Positions 5,971-18,565 of a DNA stretch of 19,983 nt are shown here, piece after piece (position 1 is the stretch's first letter; the number at the start of each line of letters is the position of its first letter). The DNA comes from a virus. Its lineage: Duplodnaviria; Heunggongvirae; Uroviricota; Caudoviricetes. The translations under genes and the position numbers were made by a program. The notes under the pieces were generated by a model, which saw only the letters and a program-made list of their open reading frames with translations, was not told the DNA's origin and did not search any database. The stretch is taken from the IMG/VR virus record IMGVR_UViG_2703718843_000007. One strand, 5' to 3'.

Positions 5971-6432
5971 CTATCTGCACTGCTCATTAATATACTTCTG
6001 GGTTCCTTCCAGTTGTTTTTGCATAGTGATCAGCCTCTCTCTGAGGGTGAAATAATCCCGTTCAGCGGTGTCTGCCAGTCGGGGGGAGGCTGCATTATCC
6101 ACGCCGGAGGCGGTGGTGGCTTCACGCACTGACTGACAGACTGCTTTGATGTGCAACCGACGACGACCAGCGGCAACATCATCACGCAGAGCATCATTTT
6201 CAGCTTTCGCATCAGCTAACTCCTTCGTGTATTTTGCATCGAGCGCAGCAACATCACGCTGACGCATCTGCATGTCAGTAATTGCCGCGTTCGCCAGCTT
6301 CAGTTCTCTGGCATTTTTGTCGCGCTGGGCTTTGTAGGTAATGGCGTTATCACGGTAATGATTAACAGCCCATGACAGGTAGACGATGATGCAGATAACC
6401 AGAGCGGAGATAATCGCGGTTACTCTGTTCAT
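5971..6432 (-). CDS. rzpD: Rz inner-membrane spanin
   Basis: 153 aa [40 protein letters not shown]...; start ATG overlaps the endolysin stop (ATGA). Confidence 0.9.
6030..6212 (-). CDS. rzoD: Rz1 outer-membrane lipoprotein spanin, embedded in the +1 frame of Rz
   Basis: 60 aa [60 protein letters not shown]; lipobox VVGC and proline-rich region. Confidence 0.85.
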
Positions 6433-12521: not shown

Positions 12522-12680
12522 ACATGTATTAAAAAAATGATATTTTTATGTACATAGTCTATTGAAAATTGCCGCGATAAAATGCCAACACCCGCTTCAT
12601 CGCGGCACTCTGGCGACACTCCTTGAAAATCAGATTCGTGCTCACCTTTCCTTCCCGTTCTTCCCTGGTAGCGAACCGGT

Positions 12681-13127
12681 AATCATCCGATCTGCGTTAC
12701 CGAGTGGATGGATGAATGCCGCCGCGAACCATTCAAAACCCGCGAAGGCAGAGAAATTACGGGGCCGTGGCAGTCGCATCCCAAACGGATGTTACGGCAT
12801 AAAGCCATGATTCAGTGTGCCCGTCTGGCCTTCGGATTTGCTGGTATCTATGACAAGGATGAAGCCGAGCGCATTGTCGAAAATACCGCATACACCGCAG
12901 AACGTCAGCCGGAACGCGACATTACTCCGGTTAACGATGAAACCATGCAGGAGATTAACACTCTGCTGATTGCCCTGGACAAAACATGGGATGACGACTT
13001 ATTGCCGCTCTGTTCCCAGATATTTCGCCGCGACATTCGCGCATCGTCAGAACTGACACAGGCCGAAGCAGTGAAAGCTCTTGGATTCCTGAAACAGAAA
13101 GCCACTGAGCAGAAGGTGGCAGCATGA
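12681..13127 (+). pseudogene. bet: bet (Red-beta single-strand annealing protein), C-terminal ~149 codons only; N-terminal ~110 codons replaced by unrelated DNA
   Basis: In-frame translation from ~12681 reads NHPICVTEWMDECRREPFKTREGREITGPWQSHPKRMLRHKAMIQCARLAFGFAGIYDK...[17 protein letters not shown], matching lambda Bet C-terminus as recalled. Upstream in-frame stop at 12669-12671; stop overlaps exo start (ATGA). Confidence 0.85.
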
Positions 13128-15305: not shown

Positions 15306-15920
15306 ATGAAAAAATCAATACTAATTTTAGGGCTTACGTTAATTGTCTCATCTCAAATACCATCGGCAATGGCAAAAAATGAATCAAGACTTTGGGTTGT
15401 TGTTGATCGAACGGAAAGACATACCTGCCCTTCAAGTAAATGTGGAGTGGCTGGGAAACTATTTTTCAGGGAAGGCGTAGATTTTCTAGAAAAAAAAGGT
15501 GAATGGGTTCGTATAACTGAGCCATATTCAGCCTCATGTGTGGGAGGGGAAAGCGAATATATTAAAGAAGGTAATAAATCCTGCACAAGAAAAAACGGAA
15601 TCGTCAATGGCAAGTTTTCAGAATGGGTTAAACTTAGTGATCTTAGCAGTGAAAGGCCATCAGATCCTGCTGAAAATGCGAGCGGAGATGATACTTTAAT
15701 CAAAGGATCTGATGACTACCGTATATACAAAAAAGAGTTTTCTTCGGCAGCTAGGAAGTTAATAAACGAAGGGGTCTGCACGGAAAGCGACTTTAAGGAA
15801 ATCGGAGGGTGGATGGCATCAAGCAATAAGGGTAAAAACATCTATTTCACATATTGCGGAGGAATGACGTTGTCGAACAGAATATACCTAGACGTTAAAA
15901 GTGGAAAGACTTTTAGATAA
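15306..15920 (+). CDS. Secreted/periplasmic cysteine-containing protein of unknown function (moron inserted into the ea22 region)
   Basis: 204 aa; AAGGA RBS 7 nt upstream; Sec-type signal peptide MKKSILILGLTLIVSSQIPSAMA with AxA cleavage motif; 6 Cys in mature part; AT-rich; followed by a terminator. Confidence 0.8.
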   Translation: MKKSILILGLTLIVSSQIPSAMAKNESRLWVVVDRTERHTCPSSKCGVAGKLFFREGVDFLEKKGEWVRITEPYSASCVGGESEYIKEGNKSCTRKNGIVNGKFSEWVKLSDLSSERPSDPAENASGDDTLIKGSDDYRIYKKEFSSAARKLINEGVCTESDFKEIGGWMASSNKGKNIYFTYCGGMTLSNRIYLDVKSGKTFR

Positions 15921-15989
15921 TATGATATTACCAATGACAGTATTAATTTAATGCCTCCATAGAATTATCTCTAGGAAGTATGTATAAGA

Positions 15990-16027
15990 AAAGCCCGCAC
16001 AATGAGCTGCTGCGGGCTTTGTGTTAT
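15990..16027 (+). terminator. Intrinsic terminator after the secreted-protein moron
   Basis: AGCCCGCA-(11-nt loop)-TGCGGGCT followed by TTTGTGTTATT. Confidence 0.55.
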
Positions 16028-16213
16028 TCGCCATATTTTATGAAGCAAATACGACACTATAGATAATTAAGCGTTGCTGGTTGTCGATTCCTCACTCACT
16101 CCTGTTGATGGCTCTCTTCTTGTATGTGCCATTGAAGGGTAATATCGAGTAAAAAGATACCGGAAGTATCCGCGCCGCCATGATTGTCTTTCTCCTAATG
16201 CAGGAAAAGCAGA

Positions 16214-16552
16214 ATGGCTAAATCATCAGCAGAGCGCAAAGTCGATCAGAGAGCCAAGCAAGCATCATCCGGTATGCGTAAGCTGGAGCTTGTACTTGAT
16301 GCTCAGGAAATTGAAATGCTGGATCGTAACTGAGCCACGCGCCGCTTCAGGCATGCGCCTTACGAGTTTGGTGAGTACATCGCGTTACTGAGCCGCCAGG
16401 ATGATGCACGTGTGCGCTGGCGTATAAAATCGATCAGCAGAAAACGTTGCGGTAAGTGCGGCGAGAGAGTTCCTGTTAATTCATGCCCGTGTAATGGTGA
16501 CTCACAATGCTGGGTGACCAAAGGCTGGCACGAAACAAAATTAATGATATAA
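16214..16552 (+). pseudogene. ea8.5-like zinc-ribbon ORF interrupted by a single in-frame TGA (16331-16333)
   Basis: One frame: MAKSSAERKVDQRAKQASSGMRKLELVLDAQEIEMLDRN - TGA - ATRRFRHAPYEFGEYIALLSRQDDARVRWRIKSISRKRCGKCGERVPVNSCPCNGDSQCWVTKGWHETKLMI. The 72 sense codons after the TGA contain no ATG start. Assignment to ea8.5 is by position and cysteine pattern only. Confidence 0.5.
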
Positions 16553-16570
16553 ATCTCTGTGACATGTCAC
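16525..16570 (+). promoter_or_regulatory. Candidate sigma70 promoter (-35 CTGGCA, 17-nt spacer, extended -10 TGaTATAAA) with perfect 12-bp palindrome GTGACATGTCAC (16559..16570) at the predicted start site
   Basis: Hexamers at 16525-16530 and 16548-16553 with TG at 16545-16546; palindrome lies between the -10 and the GGAGG RBS (16571-16575) of the downstream gene. Confidence 0.4.
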
Positions 16571-16580
16571 GGAGGCGGCA

Positions 16581-17009
16581 ATGAAATTAGACCAGCAATA
16601 TCTAAAAGATCTACTTATCGCATTCGAAAAAACTCATGGCCCTGACACGATGCTTAGTGAACTAGAGGATAATGGCTTTAATAGATATGACCAAAATTTT
16701 ATTTTCCATATGCGATTATTATGCGACTACGAATTAATAGTCAGGGTTGATGGAAAACCTGGGTTCGGTCATATAATGTCCAACGAGTTAGGGGAAGGTG
16801 TTGGATATAGTTGGATCGAAGTACCACTGAGGTTGACAGCAAGAGGGCATGATTTTATTGCTGACTTGCGTCAAAAGGAGGTCTGGCAAACTATAAAAAC
16901 AAACTTTAAGGATGAGGGAATTAGTACACTAATAAGTGTTTCAAAATCACTAGCAAAAGGCTTTGCAAGGAAAAAGATAAAAGATATTACAGGAATAGAT
17001 ATTGAATAA
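16581..17009 (+). CDS. Hypothetical cytoplasmic protein, 142 aa (moron between ea8.5-like gene and orf55)
   Basis: GGAGG RBS 5 nt upstream of ATG; MKLDQQYLKDLLIAFEKTHGPDTMLSELEDNGFNRYDQNFIFHMRLLCDYELIVRVDGKPGFGHIMSNELGEGVGYSWIEVPLRLTARGHDFIADLRQKEVWQTIKTNFKDEGISTLISVSKSLAKGFARKKIKDITGIDIE; no signal peptide or transmembrane segment; AT-rich; own terminator. Confidence 0.8.
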   Translation: MKLDQQYLKDLLIAFEKTHGPDTMLSELEDNGFNRYDQNFIFHMRLLCDYELIVRVDGKPGFGHIMSNELGEGVGYSWIEVPLRLTARGHDFIADLRQKEVWQTIKTNFKDEGISTLISVSKSLAKGFARKKIKDITGIDIE

Positions 17010-17051
17010 TTCTTAGCATCAGCAACTACTGCCTTTGGTGGAAATTATATC

Positions 17052-17080
17052 TGAACTCGCTACGGCGAGTTTTGTTTTAT
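17052..17080 (+). terminator. Intrinsic terminator after the 142-aa moron gene
   Basis: GAACTCGC-TACG-GCGAGTT stem-loop followed by TTGTTTTAT. Confidence 0.55.
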
Positions 17081-17091
17081 GGAGATGATAA

Positions 17092-17259
17092 ATGCACTTC
17101 CGAGTCACAGGTGAATGGAATGGAGAACCATTCAACAGAGTTATCGAAGCAGAGAACATCAATGACTGCTATGACCACTGGATGATATGGGCGCAGATAG
17201 CACATGCAGACATAACCAATATTCGAATTGAAGAACTGAAAGAACACCAAGCCGCCTGA
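17092..17259 (+). CDS. Lambda orf55-like small protein
   Basis: 55 aa MHFRVTGEWNGEPFNRVIEAENINDCYDHWMIWAQIAHADITNIRIEELKEHQAA; GGAGA RBS; translated by hand (below ORF-track cutoff). Confidence 0.65.
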   Translation: MHFRVTGEWNGEPFNRVIEAENINDCYDHWMIWAQIAHADITNIRIEELKEHQAA

Positions 17260-17274
17260 TGGCGGTTTTTTCTT
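17251..17274 (+). terminator. Terminator-like hairpin between orf55 and xis (tL-type)
   Basis: GCCGCC-TGAT-GGCGG followed by TTTTTTCTT; overlaps the orf55 stop codon. Confidence 0.45.
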
Positions 17275-17298
17275 GCGTGTAATTGCGGAGACTTTGCG

Positions 17299-17517
17299 AT
17301 GTACTTGACACTTCAGGAGTGGAACGCTCGCCAGCGACGCCCAAGAAGCCTTGAAACAGTTCGTCGATGGGTGCGCGAATGCAGGATATTCCCTCCTCCG
17401 GTTAAGGATGGAAGAGAATATCTGTTCCACGAATCAGCGGTAAAGGTTGACTTAAATCGACCAGTAACAGGTAGCCTTTTGAAGAGGATCAGAAATGGGA
17501 AGAAGGCGAAGTCATGA
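17299..17517 (+). CDS. xis: Excisionase Xis (lambda type)
   Basis: 72 aa MYLTLQEWNARQRRPRSLETVRRWVRECRIFPPPVKDGREYLFHESAVKVDLNRPVTGSLLKRIRNGKKAKS. Confidence 0.95.
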   Translation: MYLTLQEWNARQRRPRSLETVRRWVRECRIFPPPVKDGREYLFHESAVKVDLNRPVTGSLLKRIRNGKKAKS

Positions 17518-18565
17518 GCGCCGGGATTTACCCCCTAACCTTTATATAAGAAACAATGGATATTACTGCTACAGGGACCCAAGGACGGGTAAAGAGTTTG
17601 GATTAGGCCGAGACAGGCGAATCGCAATCACTGAAGCTATACAGGCCAACATTGAGTTATTTTCAGGACACAAACACAAGCCTCTGACAGCGAGAATCAA
17701 CAGTGATAATTCCGTTACGTTACATTCATGGCTTGATCGCTACGAAAAAATCCTGGCCAGCAGAGGAATCAAGCAGAAGACACTCATAAATTACATGAGC
17801 AAAATTAAAGCAATAAGGAGGGGTCTGCCTGATGCTCCACTTGAAGACATCACCACAAAAGAAATTGCGGCAATGCTCAATGGATACATAGACGAGGGAA
17901 AGGCGGCATCAGCCAAGTTAATCAGATCAACACTGAGCGATGCATTCCGAGAGGCTATGGCTGAAGGCCATATAACAACAAACCCGGTCGCAGCCACTCG
18001 CGCTGCAAAATCAGAGGTAAGGAGATCAAGACTTACGGCTGACGAATACCTGAAAATTTATCAAGCAGCAGAATCATCACCATGTTGGCTTAGACTTGCA
18101 ATGGAACTGGCTGTTGTTACCGGGCAGCGAGTTGGTGATTTATGCGAAATGAAGTGGTCTGATATCGTAGATGGATATCTTTATGTCGAGCAAAGCAAAA
18201 CAGGCGTAAAAATTGCCATCCCAACAACATTGCATGTTGATGCTCTCGGGATATCAATGAAGGAAACACTTGATAAATGCAAAAAGATTCTTGGCGGAGA
18301 AACCATAATTGCATCTACTCGTCGTGAACCGCTTTCATCCGGCACAGTATCAAGGTATTTTATGCGCGCACGAAAAGCATCAGGTCTCTCCTTCGAAGGG
18401 GATCCGCCAACCTTTCACGAGTTGCGCAGTTTGTCTGCAAGACTCTATGAGAAGCAGATAAGCGATAAATTTGCTCAACATCTTCTCGGGCATAAGTCGG
18501 ACACCATGGCATCACAGTATCGTGATGACAGAGGCAGGGAGTGGGACAAAATTGAAATCAAATAA
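17495..18565 (+). CDS. int: Tyrosine integrase Int (lambda type)
   Basis: 356 aa MGRRRSHERRDLPPNLYIRNNGYYCYRDPRTGKEFGLGRDRRIAITEAIQANIELFSGHKHKPLTARINSDN... with C-terminal catalytic region (HELRSLSARLYE...LLGHKSDTMASQY); start overlaps xis. Confidence 0.95.
   Translation: MGRRRSHERRDLPPNLYIRNNGYYCYRDPRTGKEFGLGRDRRIAITEAIQANIELFSGHKHKPLTARINSDNSVTLHSWLDRYEKILASRGIKQKTLINYMSKIKAIRRGLPDAPLEDITTKEIAAMLNGYIDEGKAASAKLIRSTLSDAFREAMAEGHITTNPVAATRAAKSEVRRSRLTADEYLKIYQAAESSPCWLRLAMELAVVTGQRVGDLCEMKWSDIVDGYLYVEQSKTGVKIAIPTTLHVDALGISMKETLDKCKKILGGETIIASTRREPLSSGTVSRYFMRARKASGLSFEGDPPTFHELRSLSARLYEKQISDKFAQHLLGHKSDTMASQYRDDRGREWDKIEIK

What the first reader, a model, noticed from the sequence alone, without database searches (positions are those of the whole stretch)
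16520..17080. Moron 2: self-contained 142-aa gene with promoter, perfect palindromic operator and terminator next to xis/int
Between the ea8.5-like gene and orf55 lies an AT-rich unit: a candidate extended -10 promoter, a perfect 12-bp palindrome GTGACATGTCAC exactly over the predicted transcription start and just before a GGAGG RBS, a 142-aa soluble protein, and an intrinsic terminator. The palindrome is placed where a repressor would block initiation, which implies the gene is tightly controlled, as toxic or infection-triggered effectors usually are. The integrase-proximal accessory region of lambdoid prophages is a known hotspot for single-gene anti-phage defences, and I cannot place this protein in a family with confidence. 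This is the cleanest candidate here for an undescribed regulated effector.
Basis: partly seen in the sequence, partly recalled or inferred. Interest (0 to 1): 0.55.

Follow-up and report, generated by a model that had tools for sequence, protein, structure and literature searches.

The report
Mobile DUF2513 winged-helix prophage gene cassette
A small, real and conserved prophage accessory gene of unknown function (a DUF2513 winged-helix protein) travels between prophages with its own promoter-like signals and a 12-bp palindrome. The palindrome is a shared phage signal rather than a private switch, and nothing yet shows that the gene is an anti-phage weapon.

Summary
The ORF is at 16581-17009, GGAGG at 16571-16575, the perfect palindrome GTGACATGTCAC at 16559-16570, TGaTATAAA at 16545-16553 and a terminator hairpin at 17053-17072.

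In this window alone the palindrome and the promoter are at chance level. Comparison makes them significant. In nine enterobacterial lineages fourfold sites are randomised (0.33 identity), while the palindrome (0.93), the -10 (0.84) and the -35 (0.81) are kept. The cassette sits in at least six prophage slots, once alone between opposite-strand genes.

The protein is DUF2513/phrog_585: an acidic MarR/PadR-like winged helix under purifying selection, with no conserved partner gene and no PADLOC hit.

The palindrome is not gene-specific. It is the conserved 3' end of the upstream gene, which is phrog_536 (epsilon15 gp49) and not lambda Ea8.5. It is perfect in 70 of 80 unbiased loci. It also occurs three times in epsilon15, each time at an operon end beside a terminator. 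In this window phrog_536 carries a nonsense mutation and pL/N are deleted.

New lead: the same DUF2513 module is fused to TIR, PDC-S60-like and AbiTi-like domains in rare proteins.

Verdict: a genuine mobile accessory cassette. The regulation reading is partly supported. The defence-effector reading is unproven.

The parts
16214..16552 (+). phrog_536 gene (epsilon15 gp49 / phiV10 p55 family), here a pseudogene: TGC to TGA at the invariant Cys40 codon (16331-16333)
   Evidence: There is no Pfam or PDB relative. The gene is intact in phage Chlobot and in IMG/VR prophages, and broken in this window, in ATCC 8739 and in L164. Cys40 is invariant in 27 homologues. RefSeq annotates it 'internal stop'.
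16525..16530 (+). -35-like hexamer CTGGCA, lying in the Gly-Trp-His codons of phrog_536
   Evidence: It lies 17 bp upstream of TATAAA. GGnTGG is invariant in the nine-lineage alignment, mean pairwise identity 0.81. It is kept in lineages where only a remnant of phrog_536 remains.
16545..16553 (+). Extended -10-like element TGaTATAAA; it contains the TAA stop of phrog_536 (16550-16552)
   Evidence: TATA is invariant, identity 0.84. This roughly 11-nt segment is absent from ordinary phrog_536 3' ends, where the stop lies inside the palindrome. The sequence score is weak because the last base is A.
16559..16570 (.). Perfect 12-bp palindrome GTGACATGTCAC at the predicted transcription start
   Evidence: Identity is 0.93 across nine DUF2513 lineages. 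It is perfect at the stop codon of 70 of 80 phrog_536 loci chosen by protein similarity alone. epsilon15 has three perfect copies against 0.0024 expected, all at operon ends.
16555..16574 (+). Extended inverted repeat CTCTGTGA-CATG-TCACGGAG; as RNA it is an 8-bp hairpin that pairs with GGAG of the ribosome-binding site
   Evidence: -10.5 kcal/mol, z = -3.7. By my reading of the sequences printed, the extension beyond the 12-mer varies between lineages (4 to 8 pairs).
16571..16575 (+). Shine-Dalgarno GGAGG
   Evidence: It lies 5 nt before the ATG. The distance from the end of the palindrome to the ATG is 10 nt in 7 of 9 lineages.
16581..17009 (+). DUF2513 / phrog_585 gene, 142 aa: winged helix plus three C-terminal helices
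17044..17300 (+). Start of the backbone shared with lambda and 434 (orf55, t'I, pI, xis): right-hand mosaic boundary of the insert
   Evidence: The megablast matches to lambda begin at query position 645 (window 17044) and those to 434 at 649 (window 17048). The lambda and 434 sequences were read directly.
17053..17080 (+). Intrinsic-terminator-like hairpin GAACTCGC-TACG-GCGAGTTT followed by TGTTTTAT
   Evidence: It is conserved in lambda and 434 just upstream of orf55.
17092..17259 (+). orf55 (phrog_676), the next backbone gene
   Evidence: phrog_676 E = 1.7e-39; annotated in lambda and 434.
17249..17275 (+). Second terminator upstream of pI/xis; it occupies the position of the terminator annotated in phage 434
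   Evidence: -15.4 kcal/mol. The 434 record annotates a terminator here citing PMID 6305007. In 434 an extra gene, ORF114, lies between orf55 and that terminator, so its stem is not the same sequence.

Best explanation
The unit is a horizontally mobile accessory cassette (a moron). It expresses a stand-alone DUF2513 winged-helix module.

Shown:
- The ORF is a real gene under purifying selection.
- About 60 bp of upstream DNA moves with it between unrelated prophage slots. That DNA holds a -35-like block, TATAAA, the 12-bp palindrome and the SD, and these blocks are conserved while neutral sites are randomised.
- The palindrome is a shared phage cis-element tied to phrog_536 (epsilon15 gp49 family) genes and to operon ends next to terminators.

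Inferred:
- Transcription starts from a weak sigma-70 promoter at about 16560, inside the palindrome.
- A palindrome-binding protein gates the start. The most likely candidate is the product of the adjacent phrog_536 gene.
- Transcripts entering from upstream fold the palindrome into a hairpin that partly covers the SD. Locally started transcripts do not.
- In this window the cassette would be deregulated and would depend on its own promoter, because phrog_536 is a pseudogene and pL/N are deleted.

The protein has no catalytic or toxic domain. It is the same module that sits in front of TIR, PDC-S60-like or AbiTi-like domains in a few other proteins. I therefore infer that it is a binding or sensing module, with a nucleic-acid or protein ligand, that acts in phage-phage or phage-host conflict or in regulation. 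It is not itself an effector.
For: Gene and fold:
- Pfam DUF2513 and phrog_585.
- pLDDT 92.7, winged helix plus three helices.
- dN 0.15-0.33 with dS saturated.
- 1,532 clusters at 50% identity, most of them stand-alone proteins of 130-145 aa.

Mobility. The cassette occurs in these slots:
- the lambda exo-xis slot, in E. coli and in phage Chlobot;
- the nin region, in Citrobacter and E. mori;
- next to an integrase, in Serratia and Pantoea;
- before the small terminase gene, in Cronobacter;
- after phrog_536 in a Yersinia prophage;
- alone between opposite-strand genes in Pectobacterium, with 340 nt upstream, where it needs its own promoter.

Footprint:
- Fourfold sites 0.33 identity, against palindrome 0.93, -10 0.84, -35 0.81 and spacers 0.37-0.47.
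- Four lineages keep only the last roughly 35-75 nt of phrog_536 in front of the gene.

Terminators: present after the gene in five of nine lineages. Those of E. mori and Serratia are unrelated, the two Cronobacter loci share one, and the hairpin here is backbone.

Palindrome and phrog_536:
- 70 of 80 perfect.
- Three copies in epsilon15 and three in phiV10, one of them with a mismatch, all at operon ends.
- 22 of 80 loci hold a second copy 2.2-2.8 kb away.

Other points:
- Hairpin of -10.5 kcal/mol over GGAG.
- phrog_536 nonsense mutation; pL/N deleted.
- Fusions to TIR, PDC-S60-like and AbiTi-like domains, with 39% identity over residues 1-133.
Against: - Promoter strength is unproven. The -10 ends in A or C in most lineages, and the score of 6.1 bits is not exceptional.
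- Part of the conservation of the -35 and of TATAAA could be coding constraint or stop-codon constraint of phrog_536 where that gene is intact.
- No evidence shows that phrog_536 binds DNA. Its model is poor (pLDDT 63.6), it has no Pfam or PDB relative, and the PHROG label 'transcriptional regulator' is only an annotation.
- Chlobot and this window hold a single palindrome.
- The winged-helix part of DUF2513 is acidic, net charge -6, which is unusual for a DNA binder.
- The domain fusions are rare: 7 of the 150 listed clusters (P0259, P0359, P0325, P0246, P0334, P0326, P0247). Six have a domain hit at E <= 0.0003. P0247 has a C-terminal tail I did not identify. TIR domains also fuse with many unrelated domains.
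- There are no expression data for any of this.
Confidence: 0.45

Rival explanations
1. First reader's reading. A single-gene anti-phage defence effector, toxic or triggered by infection, is kept silent by a dedicated repressor bound at the palindrome.
For: - A promoter-like element with a dyad at +1.
- A foreign, AT-rich gene in an accessory slot.
- The DUF2513 module is fused to defence-type domains: TIR (PDC-S35, PDC-S66, ThsB-like), PDC-S60-like and AbiTi-like.
- One TIR fusion lies between two DEAD/ResIII helicase genes.
Against: - No PADLOC hit.
- The 142-aa protein matches only the non-effector N-terminal module of the fusion proteins.
- No partner gene that could supply an effector.
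- The palindrome is not dedicated to this gene.
- The gene stays intact in a prophage remnant whose candidate regulator is dead. That is hard to reconcile with a toxic product.
Confidence: 0.15
2. There is no promoter of its own. This is an ordinary early gene read from pL (or the equivalent operon), and the palindrome, TATAAA and GGnTGG are leftovers of the phrog_536 3' end. The palindrome would act as an operon-end or RNA element, for example translational coupling or SD masking.
For: - The gene lies in sense orientation within a flanking operon in all but one context.
- The promoter score is weak.
- The hairpin covers the SD.
- In normal phrog_536 genes the TGA stop sits inside the palindrome, and other genes start 8-12 nt after it.
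Against: - The Pectobacterium copy is flanked by opposite-strand genes and still keeps the upstream blocks.
- The TATAAA segment is specific to DUF2513-linked loci and is conserved where phrog_536 is only a remnant.
- The gene is intact in a remnant without pL/N.
- The arms of the palindrome are conserved in sequence, with no compensatory changes. That points to sequence-specific recognition rather than mere pairing.
Confidence: 0.2
3. An autoregulated transcription factor: the DUF2513 protein binds its own palindrome, and perhaps other targets.
For: - A winged-helix fold like the MarR/PadR repressors.
- A dyad at +1 of its own gene.
- A second DUF2513 subfamily, placed after lysis cassettes, has a different conserved dyad (GGCATTCACTGAGTGCC) in its promoter-like region.
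- The conserved polar residues (H43, R45, R55, R84, T86) lie in helix 3 (38-49) and in the strands that follow it (53-55, 83-85), which I take to be the recognition helix and wing of the winged-helix fold.
Against: - The palindrome is conserved in epsilon15, phiV10 and 70 of 80 phrog_536 loci, few of which carry DUF2513 downstream.
- The recognition-helix motif FHMRLL is nearly invariant across subfamilies whose upstream dyads are unrelated.
- The winged-helix part is acidic.
Confidence: 0.1
4. A counter-defence decoy: a phage copy of the sensor module of DUF2513-TIR/Abi immune proteins, which would titrate their trigger or poison their assembly.
For: - 39% identity across the whole stand-alone protein with the N-terminal module of a TIR protein.
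- In intact phage Chlobot the gene lies in the early leftward operon beside ral and gam, which the record annotates as restriction alleviation and host-nuclease inhibitor.
Against: - The fusion proteins were seen only in metagenomic or environmental contigs, not in Enterobacterales.
- Signs of a promoter of its own, and retention in a dead prophage, fit a function during lysogeny better.
Confidence: 0.08

Closest known systems
Pfam DUF2513 (PF10711) / PHROG 585
   Same: Clear sequence membership: 42.9 bits against a cut-off of 29.6, and phrog_585 E = 2.3e-34 over the full length. RefSeq already names this protein 'DUF2513 domain-containing protein' (WP_000762730.1).
   Different: The family has no assigned function, and no paper in the searchable library mentions it. 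Filing the gene there names it without explaining it.
Morons of lambdoid phages (my knowledge: Juhala et al. 2000, Hendrix et al. 2000; examples are lambda bor and lom)
   Same: A single extra gene lies between genes that are neighbours in related phages. Its base composition is foreign. It has promoter-like signals upstream and a terminator downstream, in the same orientation as the surrounding operon.
   Different: The promoter is only inferred. The terminator used here belongs to the backbone. The left end of the cassette is a piece of another gene (phrog_536) that carries a shared palindrome.
MarR / PadR winged-helix repressors
   Different: No Pfam MarR or PadR match. Only 74-90 residues align structurally. 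The winged-helix part has a net charge of -6. There is no ligand or operator evidence.
TIR-domain defence proteins and PADLOC candidates PDC-S35, PDC-S66, PDC-S60; AbiTi
   Same: Rare proteins carry the DUF2513 module at the N-terminus with these domains at the C-terminus. P0259: PF10137 7.7e-21. P0359: PDC-S66 1.8e-57 and ThsB 1.8e-35. P0325: PDC-S60 2e-28. P0246, P0334 and P0326: AbiTi-like.
   Different: The window protein has no such C-terminal domain and no PADLOC hit. The PADLOC models match only the effector halves of the fusion proteins.
Salmonella phage epsilon15 gp49 / phiV10 p55 (phrog_536), for the upstream gene and the palindrome
   Same: 69.6-85.7% protein identity. The gene ends at the palindrome just as in the window family.
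   Different: In epsilon15 the TGA stop lies inside the palindrome and a terminator follows. Here about 11 extra nt (TATAAA) and the DUF2513 gene are interposed, and the gene is broken.
Mycobacteriophage L5 'stoperators' (my knowledge: Brown et al. 1997)
   Same: A short repeated site placed at gene or operon boundaries around a temperate phage genome.
   Different: Stoperators are asymmetric 13-bp sites bound by the immunity repressor, with about 30 copies. Here there is a 12-bp perfect palindrome in three copies beside terminators. It is distinct from the annotated epsilon15 repressor sites ATTACC-N5-GGTAAT. The binder is unknown.

Membership tests
Pfam DUF2513 (PF10711) | HMM score above the gathering threshold over the whole domain | tested here: met
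   42.9 bits against 29.6; residues 2-115 cover profile positions 1-100 of 100. All 113 close homologues also carry PF10711.
PHROG 585 | Full-length profile match | tested here: met
   E = 2.3e-34, residues 1-135 against profile 1-127 of 128; category 'unknown function'.
Moron (lambdoid accessory transcription unit) | Inserted between genes that are adjacent, or differently filled, in related phages | tested here: met
   Homology to lambda and 434 starts at 17044-17048. Lambda has ea8.5 plus a hairpin at this place, and 434 has other DNA there. Only Chlobot among 50,697 phage records holds the whole unit.
Moron (lambdoid accessory transcription unit) | Own promoter | tested here: inconclusive
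   Conserved -35 and -10 blocks and the isolated Pectobacterium copy argue for one. The sequence score is weak and the standard scan does not report it. There are no transcript data.
Moron (lambdoid accessory transcription unit) | Terminator downstream | tested here: met
   Hairpin at 17053-17072 plus a T tract. E. mori and Serratia have unrelated terminators after the gene, and the two Cronobacter loci share a third. The hairpin here is backbone DNA.
Moron (lambdoid accessory transcription unit) | Base composition different from the neighbours | tested here: met
   36.1% GC, against 49.6% for phrog_536, 44.6% for orf55 and 44.2% for the window.
Moron (lambdoid accessory transcription unit) | Expressed from the repressed prophage | not testable with these tools
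   This needs RNA data from lysogens.
MarR/PadR winged-helix transcription regulators | Winged-helix fold | tested here: met
MarR/PadR winged-helix transcription regulators | Sequence membership (Pfam MarR or PadR models) | tested here: not met
   Only DUF2513 passes. The next hit is wHTH-PRTase_assc at E = 0.1, below its cut-off.
MarR/PadR winged-helix transcription regulators | Sequence-specific binding to a dyad operator | not testable with these tools
   The acidic winged-helix part (pI 5.1, net -6) gives no support. EMSA is needed.
Known anti-phage defence systems (PADLOC-DB 2.0) | Match to any defence-protein model | tested here: not met
   No family at E <= 1. Fusion relatives match through their C-terminal domains only.
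Toxin-antitoxin or two-gene defence module | Conserved adjacent partner gene | tested here: not met
   No neighbour family is shared across 34 genome loci, apart from lysis genes in one prophage type. The contexts are heterogeneous.
Lambda Ea8.5 (label given to the upstream gene) | Sequence similarity to lambda Ea8.5 | tested here: not met
   The upstream gene is phrog_536. The lambda ea8.5 sequence and its 3' flank, read directly, show no resemblance and no palindrome.
LexA box (CTGT-N8-ACAG) | Both half-sites present and conserved | tested here: not met
   The window reads CTGT-N8-ACGG. The flanking bases vary in other loci. True LexA boxes (TACTGT-N8-ACAGTA) occur further downstream in other phrog_536 loci.
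SlmA-binding site (GTGAGTACTCAC, recalled from memory) | Match at the conserved inner positions | tested here: not met
   Only the outer GTGA...TCAC agree. The inner four bases are CATG, not GTAC (read directly). This is a lead from memory, not a test.

The most novel reading that the evidence does not exclude
Two linked novelties remain open.

(1) DUF2513 may be a previously unrecognised sensor module of modular immune proteins, fused to TIR, PDC-S60-like or AbiTi-like effectors. The stand-alone prophage copies would then act in trans, either as sensors or regulators of immunity or as decoys against it.

(2) GTGACATGTCAC, together with the epsilon15 gp49-family (phrog_536) protein, may form an undescribed operon-boundary control system in temperate enterobacterial phages. 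It has three copies per epsilon15-like genome, each next to a terminator, and morons such as this one have captured it as their on/off switch.
Probability: 0.2. Interest if true: 0.7.

Novelty: new member of a known kind. Interest (0 to 1): 0.42.

Why it matters
If the reading is right, it gives a clean, testable example of how a moron is built and moved: a gene, about 60 bp of captured regulatory DNA, and a terminator.

It would give a first functional handle on a family of about 1,500 clusters with no known role. The handle is that the same module sits in front of TIR and Abi-type effector domains.

It would also point to an unannotated 12-bp palindrome that marks operon ends in well-studied phages (epsilon15, phiV10). 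That palindrome may belong to a regulator, gp49, whose function nobody has tested.

If the reading is wrong, this is simply one more hypothetical prophage gene with chance promoter-like signals.

Tried and rejected
- PDB sequence searches for both proteins found nothing.
- Foldseek against PDB and against viral models gave only generic winged-helix or uncharacterised hits. The afdb50 library was unavailable.
- NCBIfam and PADLOC: no hit.
- Rfam on 15900-17600: nothing relevant.
- Literature searches for DUF2513, PF10711, phrog_585, WP_000762730 and the 12-mer returned nothing. The ZX5 paper and the SPC32H search added nothing.
- The AlphaFold2 model of phrog_536 was too poor to use (pLDDT 63.6). 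The ribbon-helix-helix plus zinc-ribbon reading of that protein therefore rests only on my reading of its sequence.
- Neighbour clustering found no partner gene.
- Searching the phage collection with two other palindrome contexts did not identify the phage types.
- Ideas considered and dropped for the palindrome: a CRP site (spacing wrong), a LexA box and a SlmA site (key bases wrong), a sigma-70 -35 in either direction (no usable -10), and a cos or pac site. For cos/pac, the phiV10 record merely begins after the last stop codon, and the other copies lie at operon ends.
- A 6-codon mini-ORF (ATG 16564 to the TGA overlapping the DUF2513 ATG) recurs in other lineages. It follows from the fixed 10-nt spacing and has no SD, so I set it aside.
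Full report
**1. Setting**

The window is a decayed lambdoid prophage at the lambda attachment site, between ybhB and ybhC. The + strand runs in the direction of the lambda leftward operon: truncated recT/bet, exo, ea22 remnant, a 204-aa gene, the unit in question, orf55, xis, int, ybhC.

In strains with this window a ren remnant is joined directly to a truncated recT. The immunity region, N and pL are therefore gone. The same unit sits in an intact lambda-like phage, Chlobot, inside the N-dependent early operon.

The whole 901-nt query (16400-17300) is covered at 80% or more in 167 of 5,426 complete E. coli genomes. It is present in one of 50,697 phage records.

**2. The observation**

| Element | Coordinates |
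|---|---|
| -35-like CTGGCA | 16525-16530 |
| TG + TATAAA | 16545-16546, 16548-16553 |
| Palindrome GTGACATGTCAC | 16559-16570 |
| GGAGG | 16571-16575 |
| ORF (142 aa) | 16581-17009 |
| Terminator-like hairpin | 17053-17072 |

- With a 17-bp spacer, the expected start is at about 16560, inside the palindrome.
- The hairpin at 17053-17072 is followed by a T-rich tract.

Taken alone these signals are not remarkable.
- The window has 5 perfect 12-bp palindromes against 5.3 expected.
- The standard promoter scan skips the site.
- My weight-matrix score is 6.1 bits, against about 13 for the window's best, because the -10 ends in A.

Two details need correcting.
- The terminator lies in DNA shared with lambda and 434, where homology begins at 17044-17048. 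It belongs to the backbone, not to the insert.
- A second terminator at 17249-17268 occupies the position of the one annotated upstream of pI in phage 434.

**3. The protein**

- Family: DUF2513 (42.9 bits against a cut-off of 29.6) and phrog_585, 'unknown function'. RefSeq already calls it a DUF2513 domain-containing protein.
- Charge: the protein is acidic (pI 5.8). Residues 1-100 carry about -6 net charge, and only the last helices are basic.
- Selection: homologues in Enterobacter, Citrobacter, Serratia, Pectobacterium and Cronobacter differ by dN 0.15-0.33 while synonymous sites are saturated. The gene is real and constrained.
- Family size: a profile search finds 1,532 clusters at 50% identity, most of them stand-alone proteins of 130-145 aa.
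- Partners and known systems: no neighbour gene is conserved. PADLOC and NCBIfam give nothing.

**4. The cassette moves with its upstream signals**

Close homologues (54-77% identity) occupy unrelated places:
- the nin region, in Citrobacter and E. mori;
- beside an integrase, in Serratia and Pantoea;
- between phrog_536 and the small terminase gene, in Cronobacter;
- after phrog_536 in a Yersinia prophage;
- alone between opposite-strand genes in Pectobacterium, with 340 nt of upstream spacer.

In nine lineages the 80 nt before the ATG align. Mean pairwise identity by block:

| Block | Identity |
|---|---|
| Palindrome | 0.93 |
| -10 | 0.84 |
| -35 block | 0.81 |
| SD | 0.75 |
| Spacer, -10 to palindrome | 0.37 |
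| Spacer, SD to ATG | 0.47 |
| Fourfold-degenerate sites in the gene | 0.33 |

This is a phylogenetic footprint of discrete blocks.

Four lineages (E. mori, Citrobacter, Serratia, Pectobacterium) have no phrog_536 gene in front. They keep only its last roughly 35-75 nt, from the GGnTGGCA codons onward, that is, from the -35-like block.

Intrinsic terminators follow the gene in five of the nine lineages. Those of E. mori and Serratia are unrelated in sequence, the two Cronobacter loci share one, and the hairpin in this window is backbone.

A more distant subfamily sits after lysis cassettes. It follows a terminator and has its own conserved promoter-like block with a different dyad, GGCATTCACTGAGTGCC.

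Together this supports 'self-contained transcription unit'. Promoter activity itself remains untested.

**5. What the palindrome is**

The gene upstream (16214-16552) is not Ea8.5-like. It is phrog_536, the family of epsilon15 gp49 and phiV10 p55. Lambda ea8.5 and its flank look nothing like it.

I fetched 80 phrog_536 loci from IMG/VR by protein similarity alone. Their 3' ends:

| Palindrome at the 3' end | Loci |
|---|---|
| Perfect GTGACATGTCAC | 70 |
| One central mismatch | 4 |
| None | 6 |

- In nearly all of the 70 the gene's TGA stop lies inside the palindrome.
- The codons before the palindrome vary at synonymous sites.
- The DNA after it varies completely: three kinds of terminator, LexA-box promoters, or other genes.

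The DUF2513-linked alleles differ from these by about 11 extra nt. That segment supplies both an earlier TAA stop and the TATAAA.

The palindrome is also a genome-wide element.
- epsilon15 has exactly three perfect copies, against 0.0024 expected.
- They lie at 2142, 19517 (the stop of gp18 lies inside it) and 39612 (the stop of gp49 lies inside it).
- Each is at the end of a transcription unit and 4-30 nt from an intrinsic terminator.
- phiV10 has the same three positions, one copy with a mismatch.
- These sites are distinct from the annotated epsilon15 repressor sites ATTACC-N5-GGTAAT.
- 22 of the 80 loci hold a second copy 2.2-2.8 kb downstream.
- Chlobot and this window hold one copy.
- The 12-mer appears in no paper in the searchable library, and it is not annotated in the epsilon15 or phiV10 records.

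The palindrome is therefore functional, but it is not a private operator of the DUF2513 gene.

The binder is unknown. The protein that travels with the palindrome is phrog_536, so that is my candidate. By my reading of its sequence it looks like a ribbon-helix-helix followed by a CxxC...CPC zinc ribbon. Its model is poor, so this remains an inference.

As RNA, the window's repeat extends to an 8-bp hairpin of -10.5 kcal/mol that pairs with GGAG of the SD. Transcripts arriving from upstream would mask the SD. Transcripts started at about 16560 would not. The extension varies between lineages. The two arms never show compensatory changes, which favours sequence-specific recognition.

**6. State of the unit in this window**

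phrog_536 carries TGC to TGA at the invariant Cys40 codon (16331-16333). It is intact in Chlobot and in other prophages. The ea22 gene and a 'DNA repair' gene are also pseudogenes, and pL/N are deleted.

The DUF2513 ORF, orf55, xis and int are intact. If phrog_536 is the regulator, the cassette is deregulated here. Survival of the ORF under those conditions argues against a toxic product.

**7. A lead on function**

Among the 150 best cluster representatives, seven proteins carry the DUF2513 module with a longer C-terminus. The seventh, P0247, has a tail that I did not identify.

| Protein | C-terminal domain |
|---|---|
| P0259 | CAP12/Pycsar-type TIR (PF10137, 7.7e-21; PADLOC PDC-S35, PycTIR) |
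| P0359 | TIR_2 (PDC-S66 1.8e-57; ThsB-like 1.8e-35) |
| P0325 | PDC-S60-like (2e-28) |
| P0246, P0334, P0326 | AbiTi-like |

(Sources.)

- The window protein aligns with P0259 over residues 1-133 at 39% identity. The whole stand-alone protein therefore equals the N-terminal module of a TIR protein.
- A relative of P0359 lies between two DEAD/ResIII helicase genes.
- The fusions are rare, and TIR domains combine with many partners. This is a hint that DUF2513 is a sensing or binding module used in conflict systems. It is not proof that the stand-alone gene defends anything.

**8. Verdict**

The unit is a mobile accessory cassette with conserved promoter-like blocks, a conserved dyad at the predicted start, and a terminator.

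The regulatory inference needs revising. The dyad is a shared phage element tied to the neighbouring gp49-family gene and to operon ends. The 'toxic effector' inference has no direct support.

The protein is a member of a known but uncharacterised family. Its best current description is a winged-helix binding module.

Interest is moderate. The gene itself is ordinary. The unannotated operon-end palindrome and the DUF2513-TIR/Abi fusions are two cheap, testable leads.

Noticed in passing
L285 (epsilon15) 2142, 19517, 39612; L284 (phiV10) 2262, 19493, 39101: GTGACATGTCAC occurs three times per epsilon15-like genome, against 0.002 expected. Each copy is at the end of a transcription unit, 4-30 nt from an intrinsic terminator. 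The TGA stops of gp18 and gp49 lie inside it. It is not annotated in either record and is distinct from the ATTACC-N5-GGTAAT repressor sites.
   Followed up: partly
window 16331-16333: The phrog_536 gene upstream of the finding has a TGC to TGA nonsense change at an invariant cysteine. It is intact in phage Chlobot and in several IMG/VR prophages.
   Followed up: yes
window ~12559-13127: A ren remnant on the - strand is joined directly to an N-terminally truncated recT/bet. The immunity region, N and pL of this prophage are deleted. The remnant also carries ompC-like, bor, AraC-family and IS-derived genes.
   Followed up: partly
L213, L215-L217, L221, L232, L234, L235, L240, L256 (about 5-45 nt after the palindrome): In many phrog_536 loci the palindrome is followed directly by a strong promoter with an overlapping LexA box (TTGACT-17-TATACTGTTTAAATATACAGTA). 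This probably drives an SOS-controlled antirepressor, as in SPC32H-type phages.
   Followed up: no
L006, L008, L010, L011, L013, L014, about 30-70 nt before the DUF2513 ATG (locus position 6001): A second DUF2513 subfamily, placed after prophage lysis cassettes, has its own conserved upstream block with a different dyad (GGCATTCACTGAGTGCC) and a TGnTARATT extended -10-like element.
   Followed up: partly
P0259, P0359/P0381/P0382, P0325, P0246/P0334/P0326; L287 3244-4470: Rare proteins fuse the DUF2513 module to TIR, PDC-S60-like or AbiTi-like domains. One of them lies between two DEAD/ResIII helicase genes.
   Followed up: partly
L286 (Chlobot) 17009-17487: The Chlobot record splits the intact phrog_536 ORF (17149-17487). 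It annotates a 'UmuD-like protein' in another frame and a 46-aa 'transcriptional regulator', which looks like a mis-annotation.
   Followed up: partly
window 16747-16777: The fourth best sigma-70-like match in the whole window (TTGATG-19-TATAAT, 11.9 bits) lies inside the DUF2513 ORF on the + strand.
   Followed up: no
window 15306-15920: A 204-aa AT-rich (39% GC) gene has a lipoprotein-like N-terminus and a weak SH3_3 match (phrog_8310, unknown function). It is another accessory gene just upstream and is also present in Chlobot.
   Followed up: no
window 16564-16584: A 6-codon mini-ORF (MSRRRQ) starts at the ATG in the centre of the palindrome and stops at the TGA that overlaps the DUF2513 ATG. 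The same frame relation holds in five other lineages, but it follows from the fixed 10-nt spacing.
   Followed up: no
L064-L183 (viral contigs holding TGTGACATGTCACG): The palindrome also occurs in several further recurring intergenic contexts. Examples are after Cro/YdaS-like genes ending ...HELRPDLYP..V*, and between a structural gene ending ...DAHPIYDAVTQ* and the next gene. Some of these loci hold a divergent phrog_536 gene a few kb away.
   Followed up: partly
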